A stretch of 64,000 nt of DNA, taken from positions 62,001-126,000 of the forward strand of contig JAHBMJ010000101.1 of NCBI GenBank assembly GCA_018398765.1. The letters are read 5' to 3'. The stretch is from Chromera velia (lineage: Eukaryota). The position numbers and the translations under genes were made by a program. Of this stretch, positions 6,472-55,493 are shown one piece after another (the first letter of the stretch is position 1; each line of letters starts with the position of its first letter). A model generated the notes under the pieces. The model worked only from the letters and a program-made list of their open reading frames with translations, was not told the DNA's origin and did no database searches.

Positions 6472-6541
<70 letters not shown>

Positions 6542-6619
6542 CAGAGAGAGAGAGAGAGAATGAATGGATGGATGAATGAATGAATGAGTGAATGAATGAA
6601 TGAATGAATGAATGAATGA

Positions 6620-6651
<32 letters not shown>

Positions 6652-6732
6652 AAAAAAAAAAAAAGAAAAAGAAAGAAAGAAAGAAAAGAAAGACAGAAAG
6701 AAAGAAAGAAAGAAAGAAAGAGAAGGAAGGAA

Positions 6733-6774
<42 letters not shown>

Positions 6775-8028
6775 AAAGAAAGAAAAGAAAAAAAGAAAGA
6801 AAGAAAGAAAGAAAGACAGAAAGAACGAGTGAATGAATGAATGAATGAATGAATGAATGAATGAAACAGAAAGAACGAGAGGGAGAGATGGAGAGAAAGA
6901 AAACTCAATACCTAACTGACCGTCATCGAACTCGTCGGCGATGGCAGCCACCGACGAGGTCTGAATGACTTTCTTCACGCAACCGGCCTCTTTGGCGGCC
7001 TTGAAGACGAACTTCACGCCATTCACTGCGGGGTCCACTAGGTCCTTCTGGGGATCGTTCACCTGCATGCATGCACAGGTTGGTTCTTTTTCCTTCGGTC
7101 TGCGTGCTGCTCTAGTAACTAGCTTGTCTTCGCGCGGTGTTCTGTTCGGGAAAGGCGGACACAGAGAAGTTGAAAAGGGTTCAGCACGTCGAAAAGCCTG
7201 CCGCCATCTCTCCTCACTTTCTCTTCCATTCACGGATTGTGTGAATGTGGACGTTTGCGTATGTGTGTGTTTGTATGTGGAGGGTGAACGAGCACGAGCT
7301 GTGTTCGCATGAAGCCCTTTCCGATAGACAGATAGGCAGATAGAGAGAGACTGAGTGCACGTATGCACTTTCTCAGGCTCACCTGAAGGATGTACGGAGA
7401 CGCTGTGTGCATGACGACTTCACACCCCGTGCAGGCCTCTAGCCAGCCCTCTTCACTGTTCAGATTTCCCTTCACCAACTCCAAATTCTTGTCTGCCCCC
7501 GGGAGGGACGTCAGGTGGTCCACAGACTTCGCATTCTGCACGAGAAACGAAGGAGACATAGACGGAGATGCGAACAGCCAGAGAGAGACAAAGAAGCAAA
7601 CTGAGAGAAAACTAGCTGAGAAGGCATACTTTCAAGGAGGTAGACGGGGGACCAAGATTTCCAGAGAGACACACAGGAAGCAAGACCACCACAGACACAC
7701 ATGAATGGACAGGAAGGCGGTCTGAAGGGAAGCAGTAAGGTAGTGAGCGCCTGCTTCAGAGATAAGTACAGGATTTCCAATGGGACTCGGTGGAAGGAAA
7801 GCGCTGGCTTTGACTGGAGAGAGAGCTAGTCAACTGCCTTCTCCAACCTAGAAAAAGAGAAAACTCCGTGGTAGGTAGTCAGGGTTTGGGGATAAGCGAA
7901 AATCCGTGCAAACAGACCTGAGGATCTCTAACTGTCCCTCTGACTTTGTAGCCCTTCTCCAACAGCTGCTGTACAATGTGGGCGGCAATGAAGCCCGTCG
8001 CCCCTGTCACCAACACTGTTTTCGTCAT
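3709..8028 (-). CDS. NAD(P)-dependent epimerase/dehydratase family protein (extended SDR; DFR/cinnamoyl-CoA reductase/aldehyde reductase-like), 7 exons
   Basis: Exons 8028-7918, 7535-7383, 7062-6921, 6015-5811, 5589-5476, 4331-4158 and 3862-3709 join in frame across GT-AG introns. Motifs: [15 protein letters not shown] (Rossmann fold), HTASP, TSSVAAI, catalytic YYYSK (YxxxK), [29 protein letters not shown]. Confidence 0.93.
4533..4984. repeat. Intronic minisatellite, ~37-bp unit (CCTCAAGCAAGGAGACAAGCGGGTAGACAGACAGCCG), ~12 copies
   Basis: Direct head-to-tail repeats, e.g. units starting at 4571 and 4608, degenerating toward 4980. Confidence 0.95.
6430..6900. repeat. Compound microsatellite (CA)n-(GA)n-(GAAT)n-(GAAA)n in an intron
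   Basis: Seen directly. Similar compound SSRs occur in most introns of the window. Confidence 0.95.
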
Positions 8029-8816
8029 TCTGGACTTTCGAGTTGGGGTCGGAACTGCAGCGAGCGCAGTTCAGTGGAGCCAGACAGGAAGGATACAGCA
8101 AGAGCTAGAAGGTCCGTCTCGCACCTCCAGAATATCAGACTTGAATCAATCTTATGGGTGATGTGAGGGGGCTTGAGGACAGGTGAGACCGTCTACAATT
8201 CGCAGCACCATGCAATCGATGGTGCAGATGTCAAGCACGCTGTCTTCAATGTCTGCCGTCGGTGATACGATTCGATCATTACGATTCTGAGTCAGCGCAT
8301 GCATGTGAGACTCTACTCGAATCATACTCGAATCTCGGGCACCCTGATCTGACGCACGCAAGCGTGCGAACGGCCCCGGAAAGCCCTATAGCCTATAGAA
8401 TGTACAAAGGTTTGTGTGAGACTGCATGTGAGTCCCGCGAGGACTCGCGGTGTATATTATTCATATTGTAATGTCCCTACGGGACATGCCGTGGCCCCCA
8501 GGGGTGAGATGGGGTGAGAGCACTGAGAGGTGCGTCCATGATCGTGGTACATGCATACAACAGGTTCCCCTTCCCATATTAATACATATTAATATATGGT
8601 GCATGACAAAACCCTCAATCACGGTTGTTGGCTGCGCAAAGGCGTAGCCGAGGTATCTGTAAATGCCGTAGAGGGCCGGAGACGGCTGGACGGGTTTTAA
8701 GATGGTTGAGAAGAAGAAATAAGAAGAGCTTTGCTATTAGATACGTTTGCTAATAAAAAAATTAATGACGTACAAGGACTTCGCTAACACACGGTGTTAA
8801 CGTGAATAAACGTGAA

Positions 8817-9048
8817 ACCTCCCTGAACCTAAGTGCTACTTGAAAAAATATAATCAAGATCATCTCTATTTGCGGCATCTTTTTTCAAGAGACCATCCAC
8901 GCTTGCGGCGTAGACGGTCAAGACACCATCCAGATATGCGGCTTTGGCTTTCAAGACACCATAAATAATCCGCACTTGCGGCACGGACTTTCAAGCTTAT
9001 TCAAAAATGCGGCCTGAACTATCAAGTGGTAGTTACGTTCAGGGAGGT
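8817..9048. mobile_element. MITE (non-autonomous DNA transposon) with 27-bp TIRs and an 8-10 bp TSD
   Basis: Left TIR ACCTCCCTGAACCTAAGTGCTACTTGA (8817-8843) versus reverse complement of the right end ACCTCCCTGAACGTAACTACCACTTGA (9022-9048), 23/27 identical. AAACGTGAA flanks both sides (8808-8816 and 9050-9058). Confidence 0.85.
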
Positions 9049-9589
9049 CAAACGTGAAAGAGAAAATGAAATTGTAACCGCAGCAATACATTACTGATAA
9101 ATCTTTAACAACTTATTTTTGCTTATTAAAAAAAAAAATCACAGTGCTCCCTGCTTACATCTACTTACATTTTTATTTTTTATTTATGGAGTTAATATAT
9201 AGGTCTTTTATATACAGACACACATGCTGTAATGTTTCTTTCATTTACTTTTATTTATATTTTGGTCATTCTAGTAGTAGCATAGTAGTATATGTAGTAG
9301 CCAAACATTATATACGCCTTCTATTATCAACTTGCTCTTTTAAATTATCTAGCTATAACTGAGACTGTGAGCTAGTCTATAAAATGTTTGAACACAATGT
9401 TATACAAGTCCCAAACTATGCGCTTGCTATGCTTGCTGTATTAGTTGTTGTAGTTAATTGTGCTCACTTACTCACTCACCAACACACTTAGTCACTGACT
9501 AGGTCACTGACTCACTAAGTCATTCTTGCTTTTTTCACTAATTCACTCACTCATTGTCTTACTTATTCACTCACTTACTCCCTCATTTT

Positions 9590-11060
9590 CCTTGTCTCTC
9601 TTCGATCACTCACCCACATGCCCAAAGTTAACGGCTTCCATTAACACTCTCACATCCATATGCCTAAACGGCTTTTATTCATACACTCGCTCTCTCCGTC
9701 TCTCTTTGTTTATTTCTATTTACTCACAGGCCCTAGCGGCTTAAAGTTCTATTTATACACTGAGTTTCATTCTCTCTTAGTGACAGGCTGTCTCTATTCA
9801 TTCAGGTACCCACACGCCCATGCAAATATCTTCTGCTGACATGCTTGTGCGAGTCCTTGTCCCTCTTCATTCACCCACACGCCCAACCAGCTCCTGTTCA
9901 CCTAGCCTGTTCACACCAGTTCACACACTCGCTTTCCCTATCTATGTTCATGCACCTATACCGTCGTGATGCCCCAAACGGCTTCTGTTTACACACTCGC
10001 TCTCTATGTCTCTCTTCATTATTCTTCATTGATTCATTGCATGAGGCCTAAGCGGCTTCTGTTCACATACTCGCTCTCCTTGTATCTCTTTGTCTCTCTC
10101 CATTCACCCATACGCCCAAACGGCTTCTGTCCACACACTCACTCTCCCTGTCTGAGACTCTCCTAATTTATCAGCAGGCCCAAGCGGCTTCTGTTCATAC
10201 ACTTGATATCTCTTCATTCATCCACAGGCCTAGCCATAAGCCCGAGCGGCTTTTGTTTAATGACATACAATTGATCCCTCTTCATTCATCTATGGGCCCA
10301 AACGGCTCCTGTTCCTAGCTTTTGTTCACATACTCATTCTCCTTGTCTCTCTTTCTTTGCCTGTACACCTAACCAGCTTTTGTTCACATACTCACTCTCC
10401 TTGTATCTCCTTGTCTCCTTTTATTCACCCACACGCCCAAGTGGCTTCTGTTTATACACTCACTCTCCTTGTATCTCCTTGTCTTCCTTCATTCACCCAC
10501 ATACCCAAGCGGCTTCCGTTCACACACTCGTTCTCTTTGTATCTCTTTGTCTTCCTTTATTCACCCACATGCCCAAACGGCTTCTGTTCACACGCTCGTT
10601 CTCCCTGTCTCTCTTCACTCATCCATAGGCCCAAGCGGCTTCTGTATATTTCTGTTCACACACTTGATCTCTCTTCATTCATCCACAGGCCTAACCAGTA
10701 GCCCAAGCGGCTTTTCTTCAATAACACACAATTGATCTCTCTTCATTCATCTACGAGCCTAAGCGGCTTTTGTTCACACACTCATTCTCCTTGTCTCGCC
10801 CACATGCCTAAACGGCTTCTGTTCACAAACTCATACATACTCATAAACATGCTCGTTCTCTCCGTCTCCCTTCATTCATCCACCTGCAGGCCTAAGCGGA
10901 TTCTGTTATTGCACATACTTCCTTTCTATACTCCTCTTTCTCCATGCACCCGCACGCCCAAACATTCACCCACATGCCCAAACGGCTTCTGTTCACACAC
11001 TTGCTTACCTAGCTTTATCCACAGGCCCAAACGGCTTCTGTTCACATCTCTCCCTCTTGA
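9590..11060. repeat. Degenerate tandem/satellite array built from CCCAAACGGCTTCTGTTCACAC(AC)TC...TTCATTCACCCAC units of variable length (roughly 40-65 bp)
   Basis: The core CC(C/T)AA(A/G)CGGCTT(C/T)TGTT(C/T)A recurs about twenty times. Confidence 0.85.
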
Positions 11061-11280
11061 ACTCACCAAGCGCTGGACCTATATGTGGTGAGCCTCTCCA
11101 CAACATTTCAAAGCGAATAGTACAGCATCCACAGCGATACACACTATATATAGACAGTATTTTGTGTCTCAAATCCTCAAGTGGAGGTAAAAGGAAGTCG
11201 AAAAACTAGGTGCTGAAGAACGACAAGAGGGGCCAAGTAGAGAGAAAGAAGACGAGTAAAAAGAGATTCCTGCAGATCAA

Positions 11281-12390
11281 ATTAACCGTTTTTCCTCTTT
11301 GTCCAGTATACTCAGTCGTAGTGCGGCTTACTCCTGACTCTGTAAGGCGGCATGTCTTAACTTGCCACTGAGCTTGGTAGCATAGTCAAACAACAGAACA
11401 ATTTAGAACAGCTTCACTTAGATGGTATACTTTATCGCCTTCCTTGAAAACTATATAGATGATCAAATCTATGTACAATTTCCCTCCATATGTGTTTTTG
11501 CATATGTACTGATACATCAAGGTTAGACAAAAGGTGCATGTTCGCCATATACGCGCTGTACATGCAATTGCCGGAAAATGCGGGTCCCGAAAGGCAAATA
11601 TAACCCGATTTATTGGTAATTCGACTTTTTTTTTTCCATAGGTGCGGCTAATTAATCGTTTTTCCTCTTTGTTAAGCGCACTCAGTCGTGGTGCGGCTTA
11701 CTCCTAACTCTGTAAGGCGGCATGTCTTAACTTGCCACTGAGCTTGGTAGCATAGTCAAACAACGGAGAAATTCAGAACAGCTTCACTTAGACGGTGTGC
11801 TTTATCGCCTTCCTTGAAAACTACACAGATGATCGAATCTATGTACAATTTCCCTCCATATGTGTTTTTGCATATGTACCGATACATCAAGGTTAGACAA
11901 AAGGTGTATGTTCGCCATGCACGTGCTGTACATGCAATTACCGGAAAGTGCGGGTCCCGAAAGGCAAATATAACCCGATTTATTGGTAATTCGACTTTTT
12001 TTTTTCCATAGGTGCGGCTAATTAATCGTTTTTCCTCTTTGTTAAGCGCACTCAGTCGTGGTGCGGCTTACTCCTGACTCTGTAAGGCGGCATGTCTTAA
12101 CTTGCCACTAAGCTTGGTAGCATAGTCAAACAACGGAGAAATTCAGAACAGCTTCACTTAGACGGTATGCTTTATCGCCTTCCTTGAAAACTACACAGAT
12201 GATCGAATCTACGTACAATTCCCCTCCATGTGTGTTTTTGCATATGTACCGATACATCAAGGTTAGACAAAAGGTGTATGTTCGCCATGCACGCGCTGTA
12301 CATGCAGTTGCCGGAAAGCGCGGGTCCCGAAAGGCAAATGTAACCCGATTTATTGGTAATTCGACTTTTTTTTTTCCATAGGTGCGGCTA
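11281..12390. repeat. Three tandem copies of a 370-bp unit (11281-11650, 11651-12020, 12021-12390)
   Basis: Colinear with no indels; 32 variable positions by manual alignment. Confidence 0.97.
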
Positions 12391-12400
12391 AGGGCCTTAA

Positions 12401-12680: not shown

Positions 12681-15132
12681 ATGTCTGGGACTGTGCTGGA
12701 GTCCTTGAGGGGCTCCCACGAGGACATCGAGTCTATCGAGAAGGCCATCGCACGAATCCTGACAGAGAGGGCAGAGAACACAAGGAAAGTCGGAAGGGTT
12801 GCGTATGACCATGCGATTGCCTACCTGCTGAAGATGGCCGTCTCCAAAGCCCAAACAGTAAGTCAGCACACGCAGAAAGGGAAAGGGGAACCGCACAAGC
12901 TTTTACACCACCCTCATGCATGCCACAAAAAGGATGGATGCGCACCTGTGTGAGCGTTCGGAAAGCATTCAATCTGTGAAGTGCCTTTTCTTTCATGACA
13001 TCGAAAAAGACTCGGAAGCAGATAGAAAAATTTTGGAATTTCCGGTTAATTTCTCAACTCTTCCTGCGTCTTCTTCCCCCCAATTTCCTCTTGAGCTATA
13101 CCCGTCTTTTATTGTCTTGCCTCCCATTCTGGTTGTCTACAGTGTCTCGACATCTACGCAGACGGGGATGGTGCGAGACGGGAGGAATTGGCGTTTTTGA
13201 TGGGGAGACGGCCGAAGGGTCCCGACAGTGTGTGGGCGAATTTCTACGACCAGCTGAAGACCGTGAGAGACTACCACAGAAAGTTCGCAGAGCAGAATGC
13301 ATTTCCAGAGACCAGAGACGCGCAGTACTTCCTCACCATGGCCTACACAGGGGGCGCATCTGCCACAGAGGACGGCCTTCTGACTGCACCCAAACTTTTG
13401 CAGGGGCCTGTGTCGAAGGCGTTCTCCCCTCAGGAGGACATGGGCAAGAGGGTGGACATGCAGGGGCTGTATAGTGTGTTTTCGAATATGAAGAAGTACA
13501 GGCAGTATCGAGAGACCCAATGGAAGCAGGCGGAGGTTGCCCGTATTCGAAAGAAGTGGAGAGAGAAGAAGCAGCAGAGGGAAGAGAAGGAGAGAGAGGA
13601 GAAGGAGAAAAAGATGTTGGAGGATGATGCTCCAATGCTAGAGGAAGAGGAGAACGATCGAAGAAACGGGGTAAACGGAACGTCCCACTCGCATGCAGAT
13701 GAAGAGGAAGAGATGGTAAGAAAGAAAAGAAGGGAAGCCCTCTGGCAGGCAGAAGAGGATGAGGAGATCGCGAAGGTGGCTTTCAGAGAGATTGACCACG
13801 TCACTTGGCTGAAGGAATTCGATCGGTCAGTCTGTTCCTCAGCTGCCTCAGAGAAATCTCTGAGCTTTTGACTTACTCTCATCTGTATGCGCTTTTTCAT
13901 TTGTTGTCTTTTACTTCGAAAGAGTGCTTTCCTCTTGAAAGTGGACGGGAGAGACCATACGACGGGGGAGCAATGAAAAGTCCGAAACAAAGGAAGAAAA
14001 AAACACTTCTTTTTGCTTGCCCCTTTTGCCATTGTTTGGGTGTTCTGCTGTCCGATTGGTTCACCCACCCGCAGAGTCGTGCTTGAAGGAAGTTCTCTGC
14101 AGAGATCCCTCCCCCTGTTTCTCTTCTCTCCCCCTTTTGTGCCAGCCAACCAACCAACCAACCAACCCTTTTTGGTGGCAGGCAGTCTTCCTGTCTTCCT
14201 GTACTCACACGCGAACTGCCCCCCCCGCTAGCTGCAGGTTCCACGAGGTGCCGCGGCACTGCAAGTACAGAGACGGGGACTACGAAGCATACGTGAGGGC
14301 CCTGGGGGAGTACTTGCAAGGATTCTTCCAGCGGCTCTTTCCTTTAGCAGACGGCAGGAAGGCAGAAGAGCAGTTGAAGGCGGATTTCGAGAAGAGGTGG
14401 GGGGAGAGAACCATCGCGGGGTGGGAACAGCTGACGAGGGAGATGCCTCTCTACTGCTTTCCCTCAGACCATCTGTTTGCGTCTGCACAGGTCCTCAAGG
14501 GACATACGGAGGTCAGGCACCCCCTCTGCCTCCCCCCCTCTGTGTGTGTGTGTGCGTGTGTGTGATGATTCGTATGCCTGTCTTCCTGTCTGTGCATGTG
14601 AAACGAGGTCTTCTCTCGTGACGCTCCCACAGCGAATTCACTTTCTTTGTCAGCTCTTGTCTTTTTTTTCTTTCTTTCTTTTTCTTTCTTCTGCATGCAA
14701 TGACGGCAGGAGAAGGACAACTGTCTGGATCCTCTGCTTACGGAGAAACAGGAGCGGGAAAGAAAGCTGGGAAGGCCAACAAATCTTTGAGCAGAAATTC
14801 CGTCTGTTGCATGTCTGACTGTCTCTTTGTATGGAGCGTAGACCGGGTCTTTTCGTGCGTTACAATCCCGTCTGAAATAGCGTGCGTCAGTGTGCGTAAC
14901 ACTTTCCGAGCTAAATCGGAGAAGCGAAGGGCCCGGAAAGCGAAAAATGAAGGCTAGTGAAGACGCGATATGACGCAGTCTGTTTTGTTTAGGTGTCCAC
15001 CAGCTTCGCTTTCCCGGGCCCGGGAAACTGCACGAACGCAATGAACTCCGCTCGCAAAATGCGCGAACCAACCAAGTGACTTGTCTGAAAGAATGAAAGA
15101 AAGAATGAATGAAAGAATGAAAGAATGAATGA

Positions 15133-15172
<40 letters not shown>

Positions 15173-16006
15173 AATTGTTTGTTGCAAGCAAGTTGCCTGC
15201 CTGCAGGGAAAGAAATTCAAGAAAAACCAGGAGTTGATGGCCGCCCGGTCGATGGGGGAGCAGGACAAGCGGAGGGAGGAGAGCCTCCAGGCAGACAAGA
15301 AGACTGCATTCTTGGAGGCAGTCGTCCAGAAGTACAAGGACTTCCTCGGAGAGACCATACAGGTTGGTAGTTTCCTTCCTTCCTTCCTTCCTTCCTTCCT
15401 TGTTTCCGTACATGCATCTGATTCCCTGCGTGTCCGAGGAGGAGTGTGTAGAGTGGGGGGGGGTTGCTGTGTCTGGAGTCTCGGGCGGGGGAGTGAAAGG
15501 GAGAGAGTCTGAGGAGGAAAGAGCGTACACGACAAAGACATATCATCGTCGGAAAGAGCGGACAGGAAAAGGACATGTCGGTTGTGCCAACAGATTGCTT
15601 AGACGTCTCCCTTAGCGTGAGAGCAGACATAGCGCACAACGAGAGGCAGTCGCAGCGGCTGTCGAAGCATGAGTGAATAACCGTGTGTGTGTGTGTGTGT
15701 GTGCGTGTGTGTGTGTGTGTGCAGGACACGGTGAACTTCATCCAGAAGAGACAGTCGATGACGCTGCAGGAGTTGGAGGCGGCGATCGAAGAAGAAGGTG
15801 AGAGGGAGTGTGTGGATGGGACAGGAAAGAGGGGAGAACGAAGGAAATGAGTTCGTTAGGGGAAACCTGGTGGAGGGAGACACCCGAGCTGAAAGGGAAG
15901 GCGATTGCGTGTCTCCATACAAATGGGTGGATGAATGAAGGACTGAAAGCATCAGTTGATACACACACACACACACACACACACTCACACACAGAGAGGG
16001 AGAGAG

Positions 16007-16041
<35 letters not shown>

Positions 16042-16868
16042 AACATATACCCGAGGTCAGTCAGGAGAGCTGTATGAGGGTAAGGTGAAAAAAGACCAAA
16101 GAGGGTGGGTGACTCCACGTCTTTCTTTTCATTTGCTTTCCTCAGTGCTGCTATGCTGCCTACCGTGCATGCATATGTTCTTGTCTTGTACTCTGCTGCT
16201 GTTTGATTTGATGGAAGAGAGACCTCATTTGTTCGCCTGCTCCTGCTCTCTTTTCTGTGTGTCTGTGTCTTTTGTTGCCTGCCTCTCAGAGGAGGGGGGA
16301 GAGGACGCGCCCGTTGAGGGGGTCGAGGGAGAAGAGGAGGAGGAGGTGGGGGACGACGATGACGACAAACCCGTTTTCAATCCTCTGAACTTACCTATCG
16401 GTCAGTTGGGTGAATGAATCGAGAGGCGAGCATTCCTTTGTTCACGCATTTCACATATCACTGCGTCTGTCCGTCTGCTCCTTTTTCCTCCTTCCCTTTC
16501 TCTCTGTCTCATTTTCCTTCTTCATTTCTTGTATCATTTTTCTGCCTGTCAGTCTGCCTGTAGGTGCAGTTCTGTCTCGCATTTGTGGAATTGCTTCCTC
16601 GCTCTCTCTCTCTCTCTTTTCTCTCTCTCCGTCGTCTCCTCAGTTGACCCCACCTCCCGCACGCTCATTCATTCATTCATTGTGCGTATGCGAAATTTCT
16701 GATTCCCTGGGACCTTTCCGCTCTGGTTTGTGCTGATCATTGATATCTGTGCATGCACAAGCTTTCGACCTAAGAGACGTACATCGATCGCTTCAGGATA
16801 GGAAAGCATTCTCTCTTCATGCACAGCCACTCTCACGATTCGAATGAGAATTTGTGTGTGTATGTTCC

Positions 16869-16901
<33 letters not shown>

Positions 16902-17793
16902 GTGACTGTCTGTCTGTCTGTCTGTCCGTCTGTCTGTCTGTGTGTCTGTCTGTCTGTCTGTGTGTCTGTTGCAGGATGGGACGGGAGGCCGATGCCGTTC
17001 TGGCTGTACAAGCTGAATGGTCTCGGTCAGGAGTTCAAATGCGAGATCTGCGGGAACTATTCTTATTGGGGGAGGAAAAATTTCGAGCGGCACTTTCAAG
17101 AGTGGAGACACGCGTACGGAATGAAGTGCATCCGCATCCCCAACACTGCACACTTCAAGGTCAGACCCAGACCAGACAGCTGAGATGAGATTCAAACAGG
17201 TGTCTGCCGCTTTTGTGCAAAAATCAAGGCTTGACTGGCTCTCTGACTGTTCCGTTGCTTTCTCCTTGCCTTTCCCCGTGATCCTCGGCGTTGCCTCCTC
17301 CGTCGTCTCCTCTGCGGAGTTTGTCCATCCATCTTTTCCTCAATCTCTTTCTCGTCACTGTGCGTTGAGTCTTGTGTTTGTTCTTTCTGGTTCGTTCTTC
17401 GTCTGTCTGTCTGTCTGTCTGTCTGCCACATTTGAGATCCCGATTGATGCCCGCATGATCTGTTCAAAGCGCAATGCCACCTTTCCTTTCCCCCTCTCCC
17501 ACCGTTTTTTAAGTCACCGCCACTCGGGGTCCGTGCGTGCGTGCGTCAGACTGAAAGAAACTAATTCCCTTAATTTCTTTCTGCATCCATTTATCGATTG
17601 ATTGATCGATGTATCGATCAACACATCTATCTGCAGGAAATAACAAAAATCGAGGACGCGATCAACCTCTACGAAAAACTCCAGAAGGAGGCAGAAAACA
17701 CGGTCAGTAGGACTGTCAGAAAGCTGGTCAGTTTGTCGACTTCTTTTTGTGCTTTTCTCTCTGTCTCTTCCTTTCTCTATCCATCTCTATCAA

Positions 17794-17890
<97 letters not shown>

Positions 17891-17932
17891 GCATGACTTC
17901 TCTTTTTTCTTTTACCATTCAAAGAGATACAC

Positions 17933-17989
<57 letters not shown>

Positions 17990-18349
17990 ATAGAAGGGTC
18001 CGTCCGTCTGCATTTTTGCTTTTTTACCTTTCATTCCAAAAGGAAAAAGGAGGGAGGGAGAAAGAACGCAATGAATGAATGAAATTCCAGCTAGAGCCTG
18101 TGTCTCTGTTGTCCGTTCTTCGCCTCTCTACTGAACTTTCCCGTCCTGGTCCTTCCCTCCCGTCCTCTCTGCTTCCTTCGTTGATGGATCCGCTGATCGA
18201 GGCACTCTCTGTGTCTCTGTCTCCTTCTCCGCTTTCTTGTCTGCCTGCAGGCGTTCCGCCCAGAGCAGGAGATCGAGTGCGAGGACTCAGACGGCAACGT
18301 CATGTCTCTCAGGGCCTTCGAAGACCTCAAGAGACAGGGCCTCATCTAG
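12681..18349 (+). CDS. SF3A3: Splicing factor 3A subunit 3 (SF3a60/Prp9), 9 exons
   Basis: Exons 12681-12857, 13143-13825, 14238-14511, 15207-15362, 15725-15797, 16290-16400, 16975-17159, 17637-17702 and 18251-18349 join in frame. Hallmarks: [70 protein letters not shown], zinc finger CEICGN...[12 protein letters not shown]-terminus ECEDSDGNV...EDLKRQGLI. Confidence 0.97.
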
Positions 18350-19255
18350 GAGGGGTGCAGCATGGGTGTTCTCGAGAATATTCTTCGATCTGATGCAATA
18401 TTCTCAATGGGATGGGATGAGCCTGGCAAGGACTCATGGGGAATTCGGGCTGGTTAGGAGGTCTCGTGCCGTCACCTAGGTTGTCACAGAAATGCGGTGG
18501 GTGGATCTGGGGGCAGCAGGCTAGGCAGCAGGGCGGCCCGTTCGTCGTCATCATTAAAGAAACTTACACGCTGCCGCGAAGCAAGTGTAATGTGCGGCAG
18601 GTGGCTAGGACTAGGCCAGGAAGTTCGAGATGACACTTTAGAACATTCCGAAGTTCCCGAGTTCCGACGTGACTAGCGACGCAGACCATAGAACAGGTAT
18701 GAGAACAGGCACACACTGAGGATGTCACTCGTTGGCTGACTATAATAAACATGATTCACAGACGTTTAATACTCTACTAAAAATACGTATTGTAAATAGA
18801 TCTTAATATCTTGTTATGATCTATATGAAGTGCAGTTTAGGATAGGATAGGATTTATGTTTCGGGTCACCCCGTGGTCCACTGCCGGGCCTCGACTGCTA
18901 AAGTATTGTATGCAGACTCATGATGATATAAATTCATATAATATCACTCAGTGCATGTCGGGCATTCGGCCAAGTATTCGGCACTGCCAGTGGGGCGGCA
19001 TAAATCCACTCCATACAGACATTAATCCTATTAAATTCTAAGTCACTCATGAAACTCCTATATTAGGCCCTAATCTACTTAAAATAATTTATGAAAAAAA
19101 TTCAAAAAAACTGTATAGATGAAAGATTTGTCAGCAGACTCGCCTGCGAGGAATTAAATAGAGGTTGTCGGTTTTCTGAAGCTGTTTCCACATGCTATAT
19201 AGGATATCAACGTTCGGAGGCCAACGTTAGGCCGATTGCCCGTGCACTACGGGGG

Positions 19256-19345
19256 NNNNNNNNNNNNNNNNNNNNNNNNNNNNNNNNNNNNNNNNNNNNN
19301 NNNNNNNNNNNNNNNNNNNNNNNNNNNNNNNNNNNNNNNNNNNNN
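19256..19345. other. Assembly gap (N run) flanked by G-runs
   Basis: N characters in the sequence. Confidence 0.99.
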
Positions 19346-22385: not shown

Positions 22386-25300
22386 TCAAATACACACAGC
22401 TGTCTCGCTCGACCCTGCTTTCTCACTTCCAAAAGCCTTCTCCCCCTCTTCCTTGGTTGCTTGCCTGAGACTAGAGACAACGACAGAAGAAGGGGGGATC
22501 GGAATCCGCCTTGGGGGGGGGCACGTGGGTAGAAGTGGATCCGGATTCAGCTCTCCGCTCATGGACCCACCACTACGCACATCCTTGTCAGAAGGAACAA
22601 CTGAGTCTTCCCTTGTTGGTTCTTCAACTTTCTCTGAGGACTCTAGAGGTCCTCCACCAACAGATGGGGGCGACTCGGGGGAGACAGGCACCGGCCTGGT
22701 GGCCCAGGGACAGCGGGAGGGCGGGGCAGAAGTCGGCAGACAGCTGGTTCCTGTGCCGCCAACTGGCACATGCAGGGACCCATTCGGGTTCCTCTTCACT
22801 GGTGCTGCTGAAGTGTTCGTCCTCTTTCTGTTGGGAACTTGCGGAGGCGGTCTCTGAGGGGGAAGGGCAGATGGGGGCAGGGGATTGACAGGCGCAAGCC
22901 CGTAGAAATTCAGGGTGACGCACGCAGGATCATCCTCATCGATGACCGCCACGACGCTGGCCAGAACACCCGGAGAGTGGGCAAGACTATCGGCAAGAGG
23001 GCCCACCTGCGATTGGTGTGACAAGGAGCCACCGCGTGTTCTTATGGTACTGTCTGTACGGACGCTCTGAGCACGGGGAGAGGGACACGAGGGCTGCTGA
23101 GGTGTTTCACCGACTTCCAGCTGTGCCGGTGGGATGGGAGAGGCAGAGGGGGCAGAAGGGGCGCGTTGTCCGGAAGGCTTGGAGATGCCAAGCAGTTTGT
23201 GATGAGAGTGTCCCCCCCATTCAATGCGCAGAAGGACGCGTGAGGGAAACCACACGACCGACCGGTTGGCCGAAAAGACTGCAGACCTGAGGTCTTCTGT
23301 GTCCTTTGTGCGTAGGACACAATTGAGATAGGTGCCGTCGAGGATCCTGCCTGTCCAGAGTCGGAACAGAAGGGAGGCCTCGAGGATGACCATCTCTTGG
23401 AGGTTTGCACGGATGGACCCCTGCACGCAACATTCATTGTTTGTACGCACACATGCAGCGCTTTGATTGATGGATGCGGGATCTAGAGCAAGGCTGGAGA
23501 GAACAAGAAACTCTAGAATCACAGAGATAGATAGATAGAGAGAGAGAGAGCACAGAAAACAGGAAAGGAAAGGAAAGTGCAGAAGTAAGAGATGAAACAC
23601 ATAAAAGAAACTCCCCCCCGCTCAACATCATACTGCTCCGCCGGATGGACGGAGAGAGGAGAGACGTGCCTGAAAGACTGCGTCCAGAGTTTGCTGAGAC
23701 CTCGTAAGTAGCCACTCAGTACGTCTGCGCACGTTTTCTTCCTCTGTCACGTCCCTTAGAAAGCCTAAGACCGATGCGACGGCAGGAGCATGTACAGAGG
23801 GGCAGACACTGCCTGTACCTGTGCCTGTGTCTGGGCTTGTAGGGCTGTCCTTCACGCCCGTACACTTTGAGGGCGGATTTTCCCTCGCCGGTTCTCTCTC
23901 TCTCTCTATTTCTTCACAGCCACCCGGACGCTCCGAGGCACCGCAGGGAAGTTGGGGAGGTAGCGCTTCTGTTTGTCCTTCACCCTTCTTAGGCTGTCCC
24001 TGCTGATCTGTGTGCACTGAACGAACCACTCGCTTCCCTCCGCACTCAAACCTGAAGGCAGGGGGACAGGCGGGCATCATGCAGAAAGGGTGCAAGTGCT
24101 TTGAGTGTAAAGAGAAGAGAAGAGAAAAAACACATGAGAAGAAATGCTGGAGACAGCACAGAGGCAAATACTTCAAATTAAAGCAACTCACAAGCCTTCT
24201 TCAGGTTGCCAGGCGAAAGAAAATCATACCAACAAAGAAACCGACCATCTCAGCTGTCCATCCGGTCTCTCAATCATCAGCTGGAGGTCGAAAGGCTTGC
24301 CTGTCCTCAGACAGTTCTGAATAGCCAGCTCCACCTGCTCTTTGTAGGGAGGGGCAACGAATTCTGTCCAAAGGGCGTTGACAGCCGGGCTGTTGGAAGG
24401 GGGGCAGAAATGCTCCATGGTGGTGGGGGGGGGCATATGGGGCGGAGGGGCGGGTACTCCCAGAGAGGGACACTGGTCATCTGCCTGCGGCGACTCCAGT
24501 GTGGGGGGGAGAGTTTTGTTGTGTTGGGGTCTCCAGGGTCCTGAAGGGGGGGGATGGAATGCGAGTGGAGGGGGACGAATCATGTCGCCTCCTCCTGGTG
24601 CAGCGGCGAGGGACCTGTTTTCTTGCTCCTTCTCCTCTTTTCTTCCTGACTTCTCAATCTTGTTGTCTTCACCAACCGCAAGATCAGAACCGCACCTCTC
24701 CCCCTTCCCTCGCCCCCCCTCTTGTTCACCTCCTTTCCTGTTCACAGCTTCTCCCTCCCTCTCCCGCTCATTCTCGCCCTCGCTCTCGCTCTCCATAACA
24801 GACCAGAGGCGTGGAGCGACGCGCCATCTGCTTGTTTGAGGGGAAGGCGAAGTTTTCCATTTTGACAGACTCAGAGCACCGGCCGCAGCCGCACCACCAG
24901 GAGTCCCCTTCACACTTACTAACCCCGACTCATCTCCCCTGCTTGCCCCCACACTGTGATCTGTTTGCGACTGTCCATTCCTCATGTCCACCCCCCTTTT
25001 TTGGCTTTGGCTTTGTGCCTGCGAGACAAAATTGGGGTCCAAAGGAAGAAGCCCTTGCCCCCCGACACCCCCCACACCCCTAGATGCAGCTTCACTGAAA
25101 TCCAACGGATGATCCCCCCCCAGCAGTCTGTCTCTGTCTAGGGTTCCTGCTGCGTGGTTTTGGTTTGAGGAGTCAAAAATCTGTGCAGAGATAGGACCAG
25201 GCACAGCTAACGACTCTTCACGGAGGGGGGAGGGAGAACCGAAAGTTACCAGCTTGCGGCCTGTGAGTGCTTCGATGACCTTCGACTGATACACAGCGCG

Positions 25301-26156
25301 GAAACTGGCGGCAGGTGCGCTAGTCTGTTCTTGCTCCCCTTCTACAGCCGGTCTAGGACCGTCCCCCAAACTCCAACGGGGAGCTTCGGGGGTATTCTGC
25401 ATGGGCGGAGGGATGCTGCGTCCCGCCTCAGGAATCGGCGGATGTGACAGGAGCTGACGCTCTGCAGTAGCATTCGATTGGAGGCCTAACTCAAGGTCTC
25501 CCTCTTCTGGTTCTGCCTGCCTTCCCTCTTCTTCCACTCTGCTGAGGGTACCACCCGCAGACTGCTCCAACCGATCTGAAGAGCTTGAAAGGGACACAGA
25601 GGAATTCCACAGGCTTTCCTCCTCCTCCTCACTCTCACAACAGCCACAGAGGGACTCGGAGGACGAAAAAAACCTTTTCTCTTTAATTGCGCCTTCCGGC
25701 AATTCCACAGCCCCCCTCTTTTCACCCACCACTGGCTCCACCTCACAGACCGCGGCAACCGCAGAGGAAGAAGAAGAAGAAGCAAGAGGACCGTCCAACT
25801 GTTTCGACTCCAAGGAGGGCCAGATGGGGTAGTCGGCCTGCCAGGCGGCAGTGCCGAGCATGCTGGCAAAGTTTTCGAGGAGACCCCACGCCCGCTCGGC
25901 CTCCATCACTCTGCAGTCGTCAGTAAGTATCCAGAGGAGGAAGAAATGAACAGGACAGAAAAGAGGCAGAGAAAGGGGCAACAAAAGCAGTTAGCATGGG
26001 GTCAACGCAAAACGGGGAAAGGAATGAGAAAGTCAGAATGATGGGACTCCAGGAGTCTAGTGAGAGAGAAACAGAGAGAGAGAGAGAGCAGGAGTCTAGT
26101 GAGAGAGAAACAGAGAGAGAGAGAGAGAGAGAGAGAGCAGGAGTCTAGTGAGAGAG

Positions 26157-28383: not shown

Positions 28384-29189
28384 GTCTCTTCAAGGCTGTT
28401 CCGTCAAGGAGGGATAGAGAAACTCAGATGTGCGTTGCCTTTCGGCAGAGACGCCGTGACAGAGGAAGAGACATTTGAACACAGAAAGAGTTTCAATGCA
28501 GAGACAAAGCGAACATTTTGTCTCTTATCAGCAGGAGACATTGACTCGCTACCCTCTCATCATCGCACACAGTCCTGCATGAAGCTGTAAAGGCCGGGAG
28601 AAAGACATACAGAGAGACCATGCAATGTGACCCCGGAAACCGTATAGAAGATCTGACATCCATGGAAGATTTGCACATGCATGCAGCTATAGGGGCGCGC
28701 GGCGGCGCGCGCGCGTGCGCGGGGGCTGCATGCCGCGGGGCGCGGGGGGGGCGCGCGGATGCGCGCGGTCCATGCATGCAGGCGAGGCATGGCGAGGCCA
28801 AAAAAATTCTTGCAGTGATCATGACAGGGCCGTGCCACGCGGCAGCGGGATTTTCTCTAGTATGCGTTACGCTTTCCTAGCTCGGCCTTCGCGACATCAA
28901 GAGGACAAGTGCAGCTGAACATCAAGCTAAATGCAACCAGACCTGTCTACACAGGTACACGACTTGGAAGTTGAATAAAGGTGAGGCTGGAGAGAGGGGT
29001 CATTACCATTCCATAGGGGGCGATTGTTTGTCTAGAGTCCTTCTAGCTAGCTTTAATGGTCTACCGCGTAGCATGCCCCCCCCGCCGTACTATGAAGTTT
29101 CAACCTGGGCTGCGCTCCGCACGGCCTGGGGGGGGGGTCCCGTGCGGCTGGCAAGCCAGCCGCGCAGACCGGAACCCCCCCCCCCCGAT

Positions 29190-30483
29190 ATCACCCCCCT
29201 ATGCCATCATCTACATGCTCTCCAAGGACTTCCCCATGTGAAGGCCGATGTGTCTGGGGCTTTCTTCCAAACAGAGGATGTCTGTGACAAGAAGATTGGG
29301 ATCCGAGTTCCCGGAATCAGGATTCTCCCTGATTTCCCAGACAAGAAGCCGAAGGAATTGAGTAAGTTCACCGTTGAAGGAGGGTGACATCTACATCACT
29401 GACAAGGCTCTGTATGGAGGGCCTGGTTCGGCAAGGATGTTTTCAACCAAGGCAAAGACTGAGTTGGAAGAGCTGAGTTTTGAGGAGATTGATGAGTCTA
29501 TTCATGTGTGAAGAGAGACGAACACCAACGAGGTCAACGCTGTCATCTATCACTATGTTGATAACTTTGAGGGAGGTGTGATGGACATCGAGGAGATCTT
29601 CAGCAAGTACAGGCACAGGCTGTCTCTGGGTAGCGTTATACGAGTCGTCGACGGCGAGGTGGCAAAGTTCGTGGGCATCGAGCAGATGAGACAGGGAAAG
29701 AAGATGTTCCTGTCTTAGGCCTCTTTCCTCAACTTGCTGTGCGTTGATAATCTTCTTCCTAAGAAGAAGCATATAATGAAAGAGAAGGACATGAAGGTGC
29801 CGGAGGACGACATGATCGATCTGTCCCTCAAGCCGCGCTACTAGTCCCTCATTGGCACTCTAGGATGGGCCGTCCGTACCCAACCAAAAGTACAGCCGTT
29901 CTTCTCGATTCTCTCTTCGAGAGCGAATTATAGCAGCAAGAAGCTGATAGAGTGTCTGGCACTCGTGTTGCAGGCACTCAAGGAGAGACCGTTTTTTCTC
30001 GAGCTTAGAGGGATCGACATCTCCACTTTCCTCTTCTATATCTTCAACGACTCTTCCTTTTTCATTCTGTCGAAGGAAGGATGTCAGGCTTGGATATATT
30101 TCTTGGTCGATGCGATATAGAGGCTTGAGAGCGATGACGAGTAGAACCTTGTCGCGTGTGATTTTAAGAGAATGAAGCAGAAGTTCATCTCCTCCACCTC
30201 CTGTGAAATGGTGTCGATGGTGGCCGGCGTGAAGGCCGCCTACAAGACGCGTGACATTGCTTTCCGCCTCTTTGGGAAGCTACCGAGGGTGATCATGGTC
30301 ACGGACAGCAAGCCTCTGTACGACCAAATCGAGTCCGGATTGGCGTGTTCAGAGCCCCGTATTTAGGGCACTCTCAACTATCTCATGCAGGAGATCGGGG
30401 GTGAGGGTCTCAATGCACAGGTCGTCTGGGTGAAGAAGGAGTTTCAGAGGGCTGATGTGCTTACTCGAGCTGTCTGGTGGTGA
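29190..30483 (+). mobile_element. Decayed Ty1/copia-type LTR retrotransposon pol fragment (reverse transcriptase + RNase H), 5'-truncated
   Basis: Translated pieces: VKADVSGAFF, DKALYGG, HYVDNF (YVDD box, 29554-29565), KFVGIE, FLS*, RY*SLIGTLGWAVRTQP, NDSSF, ISSTSCE, VTDSKPL, WVKKEFQRADVLTRA. Multiple stops and frameshifts. Confidence 0.88.
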
Positions 30484-30620
30484 GCGAAGGGGGAAGAAAA
30501 GGAAGAGAGTGAAAAGAGGTGTTGGTTTTCTTCTTTGTACAGTACTTTGCTCTCTTTGATTTTCAGAGTGTCTTCTCCTTCCCTCTCATCTCTTTTCCTT
30601 GTCTCTAGATTTCCTTCTGC
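30484..30620 (+). mobile_element. Polypurine tract followed by the probable start of the 3' LTR (TGTTGG at 30520); LTR end not determined
   Basis: GAAGGGGGAAGAAAAGGAAGAGAGTGAAAAGAGG lies directly after the pol stop and directly before TGTTGG, the canonical PPT-LTR junction. Confidence 0.6.
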
Positions 30621-31639
30621 AAGAAGCCGAGTTGTTTTGATTTGATTAAACGGTGTGCTGCACTCGTATCCTTAAAAATCTTTAAATGAAAGAGTTTTGG
30701 AGAAACGTCGAATGGGAGGTGTATGAAAAGTATGTGTGCGATGCGAGCGAGAATGCGTGCATCATGAGCGAGCGGCGCCCTACGAATACGGACGCGCGAT
30801 GAAGCGTGGTGGACCAGGACGCGCATGCAAGCAGACTAAATTGAGAGAGCATGCTTGAAAGGCTGACTTGATTGAGAGAGCTTACTTCAATGTGGAGTGT
30901 GACACATTGAGCGTAGCTAGCTAACCGCTGATCACTTCGTAAATGACTGAGTGACAGTGATGGTTGGCTGTGGCAGGTCGGAATTTTTGTGTATCTTTGA
31001 GTCGGTCGTGTTGATGTTGACTTGCTTTAGGCCTCTCGAGTTTAAGTATGACAGGAGGGCAGTATAGATTCAAAGGCCATGTGCACGCATAGGAAATATT
31101 CTTTCATTGACAGTCACTAGATTGATTTGAACAGGTGGAAGCTGATCATTCTTCCCTGTTTGGACAGACTCCTTCTGTAAGTCGATGAATGGATATGAGG
31201 TGATTCAGTTATATTCCCGTCTCCTTTAGTTATATGGTAGGACAGCTAGCATTACACTTTTCTGTTTTTAATATCATTTTAATATAAAATGTCATAGTGG
31301 TCGAACAGTATCTTGAATAATAATCCTTCTTTCATCATGATTTTTTTTTTTTTTGACGATAGTTTATTTAACTTTGAGTTTTTGACCCATCATTCACTTA
31401 ATTTTTTTATAAATTTCCTGTAGCCTCAATTGAAGATTATTGAACGTTCTTCATATGACTTTAGGGCTAATTAATCAAGGCGCGATAAGCTGTTACCGGC
31501 TGCGACAGTAGGTGCCGCTTCAAGCCCCACTTTGCAACATCTTTGCGAAAAAGTGGGAGCAAAATAAGGAGAGACAGAGGGACGGAATTTGAGACCTAGT
31601 TTGAGACCCATCATCATGGGCTAGATCATGACTCATGAG

Positions 31640-36495: not shown

Positions 36496-38121
36496 TTCCT
36501 TCTTCTTTTTCTTCTTCTTCCTCTTCCTCTTCCTCTTCCTCTTCTTCTTCTTCTTCTTCTTGCCGTCTTTTGTTAAGTGATCGATCGATCTTTGTGTGAG
36601 AGCCTCCAGCATCGCTTCTTCCTTTCGCGCCATCGTTCCTCCTGTCTTTTTGCATTCTTTGACTCTTCAATGAGAACGTTTCCTGTGGCGTGCAGACAAA
36701 AATGTCGTTCTGATTCAGGGATCCAAACACACGCACTTCATCTCAGAGGATGGGTGGGTCTGTCTTCTCTTCTAAGGGTCTTTGGATTCTTCCTTCTGTC
36801 TCTTTCTCACTTCATCTCTCTTTCGTTTTTGTTTCTTCTTTCTTGATTTTCTCCATCTGCATAATTTGTTCTAAGTCTTCTGATGATTATGCTTAGATTT
36901 TGCAAAATGTGTTCATGCAAAATGTGGTCTTACTCTCTTGCCTCAATTGGATTCCTTCGTTTCCCTCTACCCTTTCCCGTCCCCCTTTTCTTCTTTTCTC
37001 TTCCGCATGTTGTGTCGCCCCACCTGCAGGGCCCGGACTTTCCGCCGCCTGAAGCAGAGAGCCCCCATCCATCAGTGGCAGTTCCATCCTTCCAGGAGCA
37101 AGTGGGCTCTGCTCTCCACTTGGACCGAGGTCGGCAGGGGGGGGGGGGNNNNNNNNNNNNNNNNNNNNNNNNNNNNNNNNNNNNNNNNNNNNNNNNNNNN
37201 NNNNNNNNNNNNNNNNNNNNNNNNNNNNNNNNNNNNGGGGGGGGGGGGGCGGGTACAGACACGCAAAGACACACGCACACACACGTAAGGAGACAGAAGG
37301 CTCACGCCAAGTGCGAAGAGAGAAAAGAAAGACAGATTATAAGAAACATAAAGAGAGGGAGAAGAATGATGCCTGCAGGGCCTTGACAGAAGAAGATTAT
37401 TTCACTTCTGCTGTGTATGCGTGAAATTGACCATGGGAAGAAAAGAGAAGGGAATTGCGGTTCACAAGACGAAGGAAGGATGAGTGCCGATCTCTCTCTG
37501 TGTGTGCCTGCAGACATGCGACGCTCCTGGAGCAGGTCACAAAAAGGACACCTCCTCCTCAGATTCAGCAGGAGAAGAGAAAGAACAGCCGTGCAACCAT
37601 CTCCTGTACGTGACACGCGATGCCGGAAGGACCTTTTCCTTTGTGGAGTCCTACGTTGTCCAATTTTCGTCAGTCATGTTCTCCTCTCCTCTGTTCTCTT
37701 CTCTCTCCTCTGTTCTCTTCTCCTCTCTTCTTTGTTTTTTCTCTTTCGCTACTTCTCTCTATTCTTGCTTTTCCTGTCCTCAAGCGCAGTCTCTCTCTCC
37801 ATGTCTCGGTCATTTCTTCGCGGAAGACACTGCCGTTACCTGTCTTTTCTTTCTGAAATTATTTTTCGTCTGACCGTTTGTCTCCGTGCATGAGAGAGAG
37901 AGAGAGCAGGTGGGGAGATCCGAAGTTGTCCCAAGAGGAGAGGATCTTCTACACACACCACAGACACAAAAAGGGGGATCAGCCGAGGTTTGGCGGATGG
38001 GCCAAGACCGTGGACCTCTCCTACACAGACAACCTCGGTGGGTCGGTGGGTGGGTGCTCGAGCGAGAGGCCTGCGTGCATACATACATGCATGGTGGGGC
38101 CAAAGGAAAAAAGAAAGGGTT

Positions 38122-53959: not shown

Positions 53960-55440
53960 CACAGTAGCTTAAAGTGGACTCAAGCGCAAAAACGGAATCT
54001 AAAAGAGACTCCCGAAAAGTCCGGAGCCCTTAAGATCATAAGGGAGAAATCTTAGTTAGAGAAATGCTGGAAAGCCTGGAATATAAGCGGCGCGATTCAC
54101 TACCAAGCAATTTACCTTAGTAGCAGTTTACCATAAACGGTCTACTACGTATACCAGATGTTCGCTTAATTGCACTTATTAAAATCTTAGCTAAAATCAG
54201 GGATAAATCAGAGTTCGTTAAGATTGATATGACGCGTGCAAACAATTTAGGAGACAATATAAAAACTTAGACTTCGCCGTAACGCCGTTGATCACACCAC
54301 CATATATAGTACCATTGAATCTGATATTGAGAGATTGATTGATTGGTTGATTAATTACTACTAATTTACTAGATTAACTCAATGACTAATTAATCTAGTA
54401 CTTAATTAATTGATTGTTTCAATTTGATTGATTTATTGATTTATTCCGTCCTAGGGGCCACAGCCTGCATGCCCGGTATATTATTACTCATATTGCAATG
54501 ATGATCCCTTGTAAAGGTTGTTGCTAGGTTTGCTGCCTAGGTTGCCGCTCGTATAATTGAGTCGTATTTGTTCCGACTCGTATAGAATATTTGCATAGGC
54601 CCTTGCACACTAGCTTTACACCTATCATCATCGTGCGCTATATGATATCGCTATCGCGGATCGGCCCTTCGATTGGGCCACAAATAAAGCGTGTATCGTT
54701 AGATGGCAAGACGCGAGCTCCTGCGACAGTTAGGACTAGTTAGATATTAAATTTTAAGACTCAAATTAAGAGCAATCTAGATCAAAAACAGTCCACATTT
54801 TTTATGCTTTGCGTCTTTTAAAAAGTTGACTATCTTTGATACAGGATATACATCTAAATATACATTTTCTACTAGATTTTCCATGGCCGTTTAGGCTAGC
54901 CGCTGGCCCAAACCGTAGTAGTCTAGGTAGTAGTTAGGGTAGTAGTAGCTCTCTGGGCCTCTGGCGCTAGTTTTAGCGCCACAGTATGCTGTCACTAGAT
55001 GTACAGGCTGTAACAGTACAGCTTAAGACAGCGTAAATCGCTTCTAGGCAATGTAATAGGCACTAGTCTACCGCTAGAGTAGGCGTCAGTTTAAAAAAAA
55101 TAAGTATAGAAACCGTAAAACCTTTTACCTAGCTAGCCTTTTACTTTCTTTTTTTTTTGTCACTTATAAAGTCAAACACTAGCTTTGTCAAACAAGTGTT
55201 GTTGTTTAAGTGTTGCATAAGTTTTTTTTATATGTTGTGTAGCATTGTAGCTGTTAATTAAGTGTTGTGCCGATTAAAAGGGTAAATTAAAAATTAGAAA
55301 TTAAAAAAAAATAAAAAGTCTCATCAGATTGGTTTTTTTTTTTTTTCTTTAGACAACGCCTATAGAATCACTTCTAAGTTCAAGTTTAAATTTATTAGAT
55401 TTAACTTGATCATTTAAGTTTAAGAATAGATTTACGTATT
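53960..55440. other. AT/TpA-rich intergenic block, probably decayed repeats
   Basis: Dense TAG/CTAG/TAA words (e.g. 54910-54950 GTAGTAGTCTAGGTAGTAGTTAGGGTAGTAGTAG). No ORF of 60 aa or more in any frame over ~1.5 kb. Confidence 0.65.
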
Positions 55441-55493
55441 CTGTTTTACACAGCTTCCATGAGCGCCCACTCCTACTCCTGATGCCAAAACGG

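What the first reader, a model, noticed from the sequence alone, without database searches (positions are those of the whole stretch)
29190..30483. Copia element inactivated by the same CpA->TpA changes
Seen: five in-frame stops in the pol fragment are TAG (29716-18, 29842-44, 30118-20, 30142-44, 30364-66). Two fall at positions where copia RTs typically have Gln (FLS* for LSQ, RY*SLIG for YQSLIG), i.e. CAG->TAG. The catalytic YVDD box reads YVDN (GAT GAC->GAT AAC, a TpG->TpA change). This is independent support, from a different repeat class, for targeted CpA/TpG hypermutation disabling transposons.
Basis: partly seen in the sequence, partly recalled or inferred. Interest (0 to 1): 0.7.

Follow-up and report, generated by a model that had tools for sequence, protein, structure and literature searches.

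The report
C-to-T decay of Chromera repeats
This is a dead, truncated jumping-gene fragment in the alga Chromera velia that has lost about one in nine cytosines to C-to-T changes, at CG as often as at CA; nearby introns show no such wear, so a repeat-directed mutation process is likely, but not the CA-only fungal one that was proposed.

Summary
The five TAG stops and the YVDN box are real. The element is a 3' RT/RNase H fragment of a multi-copy Ty1/copia family of Chromera velia. Sister copies have Q, Q, W, W, Q at the TAGs. That proves little, because CAG and TGG are the only sense codons one transition from TAG. The family box is HVDD, and D-to-N is a CpG-to-TpA double hit. The copy is also 5'-truncated, twice frameshifted and has a CGA-to-TGA stop, so CpA changes are not shown to have killed it. 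The spectrum is still striking: 24 of 209 C/G sites changed against 5 of 157 A/T sites. Both strands are hit equally, without clusters. CpA and CpG are hit alike (16/97, 12/79), ahead of CpT and CpC. Ten sister copies and two tandem repeats show a similar ranking. Introns of a neighbouring host gene keep 48% GC and strong TpA depletion, which argues for repeat-directed C-to-T decay, most likely through methylation. RIP is not shown, though one survey lists a DNMT4-like enzyme in the sister genus Vitrella. No paper was found on this in chromerids; this scan noted similar CpG+CpA decay only in fungi.

The parts
29203..30483 (+). 5'-truncated Ty1/copia pol fragment (reverse transcriptase and RNase H), ending at its natural TGA 30481-83
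   Evidence: tblastn of 10 Chromera family proteins starts at 29203; RVT_2 E=0.0014, below Pfam cut-off; sister proteins end AVWW at the same place
29238..29239 (+). 1-nt deletion (frameshift) relative to the family
   Evidence: table 4, runs X1, X2, X3
29373..29377 (+). 38-nt deletion (second frameshift); about 13 residues missing
   Evidence: table 5c (33 letters plus 5 overlap); proteins
29509..29511 (+). premature TGA; family Arg, CpG context
29554..29565 (+). RT catalytic box, family HVDD, here YVDN (C>T at a CpA; CpG>TpA double hit)
29716..29718 (+). premature TAG, family Gln
29842..29844 (+). premature TAG, family Gln (protein evidence only)
30118..30120 (+). premature TAG, family Trp
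30142..30144 (+). premature TAG, family Trp
30364..30366 (+). premature TAG, family Gln
30485..30519 (+). polypurine tract (inferred)
   Evidence: purine run directly before TGTTGG; role from general knowledge of LTR elements
30520..31200 (+). probable 3' LTR starting TGTTGG; multi-copy; right end not found (31200 is only where the laid stretch ended)
28825..29202 (.). unrelated multi-copy repeat abutting the truncation; TpA o/e 1.2; possibly a DNA-transposon end
   Evidence: depth and loose ends at 28827 and 29202
11280..12391 (.). comparison repeat: 3 x 370-bp tandem array, 30 of 32 variable columns are transitions
9560..11060 (.). comparison repeat: imperfect minisatellite, 14 core units scored
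12681..18349 (+). control: SF3A3 (Prp9) host gene; introns 48% GC, TpA o/e 0.28; ends in TAG used as stop

Best explanation
This is a dead 3' fragment of a Chromera velia Ty1/copia retrotransposon that has lost about 11% of its cytosines to C>T changes on both strands, at CpG as often as at CpA, likely because a host methyltransferase marks cytosines in repeats and the marked bases then deaminate to T. SHOWN: identity, lesions, rate, ranking CpA~CpG > CpT > CpC, strand symmetry, no clustering, a similar ranking in sister copies and two tandem repeats, and the compositional contrast with introns. INFERRED: that the process is confined to repeats (from composition only); that it works through 5-methylcytosine; that it acts after insertion over many cell divisions. 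UNTESTED: the enzyme. Candidates are a chromerid DNMT4-like protein or one of four proteins filed as DNMT2.
For: Complete list over 30045-30410: 24/209 C/G sites changed C>T or G>A, 5/157 A/T sites changed; 28 transitions to 2 transversions in 30030-30420 (C/G versus A/T transitions P=0.001). Amino-acid-changing sites in this copy: CpA 16/97, CpG 12/79, CpT 8/88, CpC 5/123. Ten sister copies: CpG 30/374, CpA 19/413, CpT 13/454, CpC 11/630. 370-bp array: 16/53, 9/42, 3/41, 2/34 in the order CpA, CpG, CpT, CpC. Minisatellite: 17/84, 11/56, 5/42, 0/42. Strands 17/153 and 24/243, P=0.74; strand runs P=0.27; spacing P=0.56. This dose took TpA from 3 to 12 in 366 bp, while SF3A3 introns have TpA o/e 0.28 and 48% GC; simulated to near equilibrium the process gives 12-21% GC and TpA o/e about 1. 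PMC4352252 (passages) links CpG signatures in TEs to methylation followed by deamination.
Against: PMC12344493 Suppl. Table 1 lists no DNMT1, 3, 4, 5 or 6 for C. velia, only four DNMT2, and its text says DNMT2-only species lack detectable 5mC. That row may be incomplete: the same table gives Vitrella zero of everything, whereas PMC10538959 lists a DNMT4 and a DNMT2 for it. No methylome was found. In the one complete, unbiased list the four contexts do not differ significantly (chi-square P=0.32). No polymorphism data for unique DNA were available, so targeting rests on composition and on about 2.6 kb of hand-placed introns of one gene. CpG is only mildly depleted in the element (o/e 0.74) and no more than in genic DNA (0.64-0.72).
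Confidence: 0.5

Rival explanations
1. An active RIP-like defence: duplicated DNA is recognised by homology and mutated C>T in bursts by a DNMT4/RID-like enzyme that prefers CpA and CpG.
For: 80-90% of changes are C>T; CpA is about 3 times CpT+CpC. Tandem arrays as well as a retroelement are hit. This copy carries 2.7 times the C>T load of its sisters (41/387 against 73/1871, P=6e-7) with the same transversion load (3/419 against 14/2219, P=0.74), and the three 370-bp units carry 23, 12 and 5 T/A alleles, so the dose is uneven. Vitrella CEM15752 is filed as DNMT4 (PMC10538959); diatom DNMT4 and RID may be monophyletic (PMC9998398).
Against: No CpA preference over CpG; no strand-coordinated runs or clusters. 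The RIP indices of the element are not RIP-like: TpA/ApT 0.55, (CpA+TpG)/(ApC+GpT) 1.27. Several sisters differ from the majority at only 2-3% of residues. PMC12344493 calls DNMT4/RID fungus-confined and lists none in Chromera. Sisters were found as annotated proteins, which favours little-mutated copies and inflates the dose contrast.
Confidence: 0.25
2. No targeting: Chromera has a genome-wide, strongly C>T-biased mutation spectrum that any unselected DNA shows, while genes and introns stay GC-rich through GC-biased gene conversion, transcription-coupled repair or selection.
For: All four contexts are hit; no clusters; one survey finds no DNA-type DNMT; CpG can be hypermutable without methylation (PMC4704713 abstract, though there mostly C>A). 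The AT-rich patches were not shown to be repeats (one search found no copies within the window).
Against: Introns at 48% GC with TpA o/e 0.28 lie far from the simulated 12-21% GC. A spectrum of 41 C>T to 1 T>C to 3 transversions is far more skewed than spontaneous spectra I recall. C>T load varies among copies independently of transversions (heterogeneity P=0.004).
Confidence: 0.2
3. Deaminase editing of the element's cDNA during reverse transcription (APOBEC-like).
For: Heavy, copy-specific transition load.
Against: Such editing gives G>A on one strand (general knowledge); here both strands are equal, and non-retro tandem arrays share the pattern.
Confidence: 0.03
4. The TAGs are not stops: the host reads TAG as Gln.
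For: Five in-frame TAGs, three at Gln positions.
Against: Two sit at Trp positions; sister copies have CAG/TGG in their DNA; the host SF3A3 gene ends at a TAG.
Confidence: 0.01

Closest known systems
Ty1/copia LTR retrotransposons (RVT_2); Copia totals 3.7 Mb in C. velia (PMC4501334 Suppl. file 2 row)
   Same: RVT_2-type RT then RNase H; family order zinc knuckle, protease-like motif, integrase, RT; purine tract and TG-start LTR
   Different: HVDD box of a divergent clade (nearest non-family relatives at most 38% identical); this copy is a broken fragment
CpG(+CpA) C>T decay of methylated transposons in fungi such as Tuber melanosporum and Microbotryum (PMC4352252, passages)
   Same: Transition-dominated TE decay with CpG and CpA signatures
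   Different: Alveolate host; no DNMT1/Masc2/Dim2 listed; CpT and CpC also hit; CpG not erased
Repeat-induced point mutation (RIP) of Neurospora and other Pezizomycotina
   Same: C>T on both strands of repeats, CpA elevated, premature TAG stops
   Different: RIP can be about 90% CpA (Leptosphaeria, PMC4352252); here 26-53%. No clusters, RIP indices negative, RID not shown, link to a sexual cycle untested
DNMT2-family DNA methylation reported in Toxoplasma, Plasmodium and Entamoeba (PMC5436566, passages)
   Same: Alveolate relatives with only DNMT2-type enzymes; non-CpG methylation claimed
   Different: Contested (PMC12344493); no mutational footprint on repeats described there in what I read

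Membership tests
Ty1/copia | RVT_2-type reverse transcriptase | tested here: met
   RVT_2 is the only Pfam hit of this copy (E=0.0014) and best hit of 5 of 7 sisters (best 5.6e-7, all below the curated cut-off); intact relatives pass it
Ty1/copia | Integrase upstream of RT | tested here: met
   Intact relatives P0012 and P0026 have pre-integrase, rve, RVT_2 in that order; Chromera P0013 and P0009 align to that region. Missing from this copy
Ty1/copia | Paired LTRs, PBS, target-site duplication | tested here: inconclusive
   Only a purine tract and a TGTTGG start at 30520; 5' part absent from the window; LTR end not found
RIP | C:G>T:A transitions dominate in repeats | tested here: met
RIP | Dominant CpA/TpG context | tested here: not met
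   CpA equals CpG (P=0.84; pooled 0.91); CpA share 16/41, 9/24, 19/73, 16/30
RIP | Many strand-coordinated changes per round | tested here: inconclusive
   No runs (P=0.27) or clusters (P=0.56) among 41 changes; several rounds would blur this
RIP | Confined to duplicated DNA | tested here: inconclusive
   Composition contrast with introns; no variant data for unique DNA; no close host paralogue to test (nearest 36%)
RIP | RID/DNMT4 gene required | not testable with these tools
   No genome held; surveys disagree for chromerids
RIP | Occurs premeiotically in the sexual cycle | not testable with these tools
   Needs crosses or pedigrees
Methylation-driven TE decay | Elevated C>T at CpG in TE copies | tested here: met
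   CpG against CpT+CpC P=0.019 in this copy, 0.0008 in sisters
Methylation-driven TE decay | 5mC on the repeats and a DNA-type DNMT in the host | not testable with these tools
   No methylome found; one survey lists DNMT2 only

The most novel reading that the evidence does not exclude
Chromerids run a RIP-like, homology-triggered C>T mutator on repeats, aimed at CpA and CpG and driven by a DNMT4/RID-related enzyme: a repeat-mutating genome defence outside fungi, in the closest photosynthetic relatives of apicomplexans.
Probability: 0.2. Interest if true: 0.85.

Novelty: new member of a known kind. Interest (0 to 1): 0.45.

Why it matters
The element itself is ordinary. The mutation pattern matters more: it points to cytosine marking or mutation of repeats in an alga listed as having no DNA-type methyltransferase, at the base of a lineage whose parasites have few transposons (recalled). 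If it is methylation, the enzyme survey is wrong or a DNMT2-like enzyme acts on DNA. If it is RIP-like, repeat-induced mutation is not fungus-only. Both can be tested with the public assembly and one methylome.

Tried and rejected
No whole genome is held, so the all-copy alignment could not be made. Family data come from contigs of 4 of the 10 listed runs and from 10 annotated proteins. One search showed only 40 of 472 difference rows, the best supported (33 C>T/G>A: CpG 11, CpA 10, CpT 8, CpC 4); they are biased and were not used for rates. No RNA holder listed: no statement on expression. The metagenome scan gave one distant locus, 26% identity, not used. The search for longer proteins found no intact Chromera polyprotein, which is weak evidence. 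The LRR gene failed as a duplicated-gene control: nearest paralogue 36%. One search miscounted 30363 as a transition; reads show G>T, corrected (41, not 42). The protein-based method prefers a transition when ambiguous, uses window bases at unseen synonymous places, sees no stop-forming changes in sisters and masks stretches under 70% local identity. P0012, P0013, P0016, P0018 and P0052 were left out of the spectrum. Counting 29289 and 30295 as ancestral CpG gives CpA 14/95 and CpG 14/81. The tandem arrays were polarised by assuming C/G ancestral (370-bp) or by majority (minisatellite), and their units share history. Chromera's own DNMT sequences could not be retrieved. Paper searches gave nothing; others listed nothing on chromerid repeat mutation. 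Supplement files 13-23 of PMC9998398 and 13-16 of PMC4501334 were not searched and may bear on the DNMT repertoire.

Full report
Observation. The five TAG codons stand at the stated places in one frame, with FLS*, RY*SLIG and YVDN as described. That frame also holds TGA at 29239, 29359, 29509 and the terminal 30481.

Host and element. All 10 near homologues of the read-through protein are Chromera velia proteins at 72-87% identity, and the LRR gene at 55497-57641 matches a C. velia protein at 100%. The fragment hits RVT_2 weakly. Intact relatives carry pre-integrase, integrase and RVT_2 in copia order, and Chromera family members align to them. The family is multi-copy: contig depth is some 10-20 times that of the unique flank, which is no exact copy number. 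Copia sequence starts abruptly at 29203 against another repeat, and no 5' part lies elsewhere in the window. A purine tract and TGTTGG at 30520 mark the probable 3' LTR (inferred). PMC4501334 (passages and one supplement row) reports about 30 Mb of TEs and 3.7 Mb of Copia in this genome.

Lesions. Sister proteins have Q, Q, W, W, Q at the TAGs and mostly R at TGA 29509; reads confirm the bases at four of the five TAGs and at the TGA. The copy has also lost 1 nt after 29238 and 38 nt at 29373-77. The family box is HVDD (22 of 38 distant relatives). The window's Y is a C>T at a CpA, and its N comes from a CpG that took two hits. Truncation, either frameshift or any stop would inactivate the copy, and their order cannot be read.

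Why the stops prove little. Among sense codons only CAG and TGG give TAG by one transition, so every such stop is 'CpA/TpG' by construction. Nineteen codons could give TAG; five did, against 2.0 expected at the mean rate (P=0.044), but TAG is not enriched among the six stops (P=0.20).

Spectrum. The complete list of majority differences over 30030-30420 has 30 rows, 28 of them transitions. In 30045-30410, 24 of 209 C/G sites and 5 of 157 A/T sites changed; by context CpA 9/52, CpG 7/54, CpT 5/54, CpC 3/49 (P=0.32). Over the whole fragment, amino-acid-changing sites give CpA 16/97, CpG 12/79, CpT 8/88, CpC 5/123 (P=0.011; CpA against CpG P=0.84), with 41 C>T, 1 T>C and 3 transversions, plus one multi-hit codon. 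The ten sisters give 73 C>T, 5 T>C, 14 transversions and 5 multi-hit codons, ranked CpG 30/374, CpA 19/413, CpT 13/454, CpC 11/630. The 370-bp array gives CpA 16/53, CpG 9/42, CpT 3/41, CpC 2/34, and the minisatellite 17/84, 11/56, 5/42, 0/42. Pooling this copy, distinct sister events and the 370-bp array: CpA 48/225, CpG 43/196, CpT 24/217, CpC 17/272. The strands are equal and there are no runs or clusters. The method's limits are listed under Tried and rejected.

Is it targeted? In 366 bp this dose lowered GC from 57% to 52% and raised TpA from 3 to 12. Simulated to near equilibrium it gives 12-21% GC and TpA o/e near 1. Genic blocks totalling about 31 kb have 50-54% GC and TpA o/e 0.32-0.40; six hand-placed SF3A3 introns (2,576 steps after masking simple repeats; three have inexact borders) have 48% GC and 0.28. 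The left repeat has 1.19, the 370-bp units 0.91-1.04, and three intergenic patches 37.5% GC and 1.07 (TA:AT against introns P=4e-10). The genome is thus split into worn and unworn compartments. This supports targeting, but only indirectly: the patches were not shown to be repeats, repeats may start AT-rich, and GC-biased conversion or repair could protect genes. This copy carries 2.7 times the C>T load of its sisters at equal transversion load, which suggests an uneven dose, though annotated sisters are biased towards intact ones.

Mechanism. I favour marking of repeat cytosines at CG and CA, less at CT and CC, followed by deamination (0.5). The ranking resembles the preference recalled for de novo methyltransferases, and PMC4352252 (passages) ties CpG signatures to methylation and CpA/CpT signatures to RID. 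The weak point is the enzyme. PMC12344493 (passages and table rows) lists only four DNMT2 for Chromera, nothing for Vitrella, and calls DNMT4/RID fungal. PMC10538959 (passages and table rows) lists a DNMT4 and a DNMT2 in Vitrella and does not cover Chromera, so the zeros are doubtful. PMC9998398 (passages) finds diatom DNMT4 and RID possibly monophyletic. PMC5436566 (passages) claims DNA activity for Toxoplasma DNMT2-type enzymes. A RIP-like burst process (0.25) and an untargeted bias (0.2; PMC4704713 abstract) remain open. cDNA editing and TAG recoding are rejected. PMC12543289 (passages) restricts RIP-like signatures to some ascomycete clades and covers fungi only.

Novelty and verdict. The element is a new member of a known class. 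I found no paper on repeat mutation or methylation in Chromera (searches; open-access library only). Interest 0.45.

Noticed in passing
window 28825-29202: Multi-copy repeat (contig depth some 20-35 times the flank) starting CAGGGCCGTGCC, with a near-perfect hairpin between G and C runs at 29128-29183; other copies hold the start motif inverted; possibly a DNA-transposon or MITE end.
   Followed up: partly
window 1900-3430, 8550-9600, 18700-19250, 54000-55460: Intergenic AT-rich, TpA-rich patches unlike genic DNA; an 11-nt GGGGCCACGGC-like motif recurs at 2491, 8488, 12416, 54454 and 60960. Probably old worn repeats, not shown.
   Followed up: partly
genic DNA of the whole window: Very strong TpA depletion (o/e 0.28-0.40) even in introns at about 50% GC; unexplained.
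   Followed up: partly
window 29288, 29808, 30294, 30336, 30345: Five of seven places where the window keeps C/G and the family majority has T/A are or were CpG sites, so CpG decay also ran in the lineage that kept amplifying.
   Followed up: partly
window 30482 onward; 30866-31200: One contig joins at 30482 from a different upstream sequence (a related or non-autonomous family sharing the LTR?); depth rises several-fold from 30866.
   Followed up: no
window 4496-4972: 37-bp tandem array of about 12 units, 91-95% alike.
   Followed up: no
window 12681-18349 (+), 55497-57707 (-), 24224-25990 (-), about 5600-7630 (-): Host genes: SF3A3/Prp9 with microsatellite-rich introns, an LRR protein, an ORF with a PAS_3 hit below cut-off, and a likely NAD-dependent epimerase/reductase (recognised by eye).
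   Followed up: partly
window 19257-19345 and 37148-37236: Assembly gaps (N runs) flanked by G runs.
   Followed up: no
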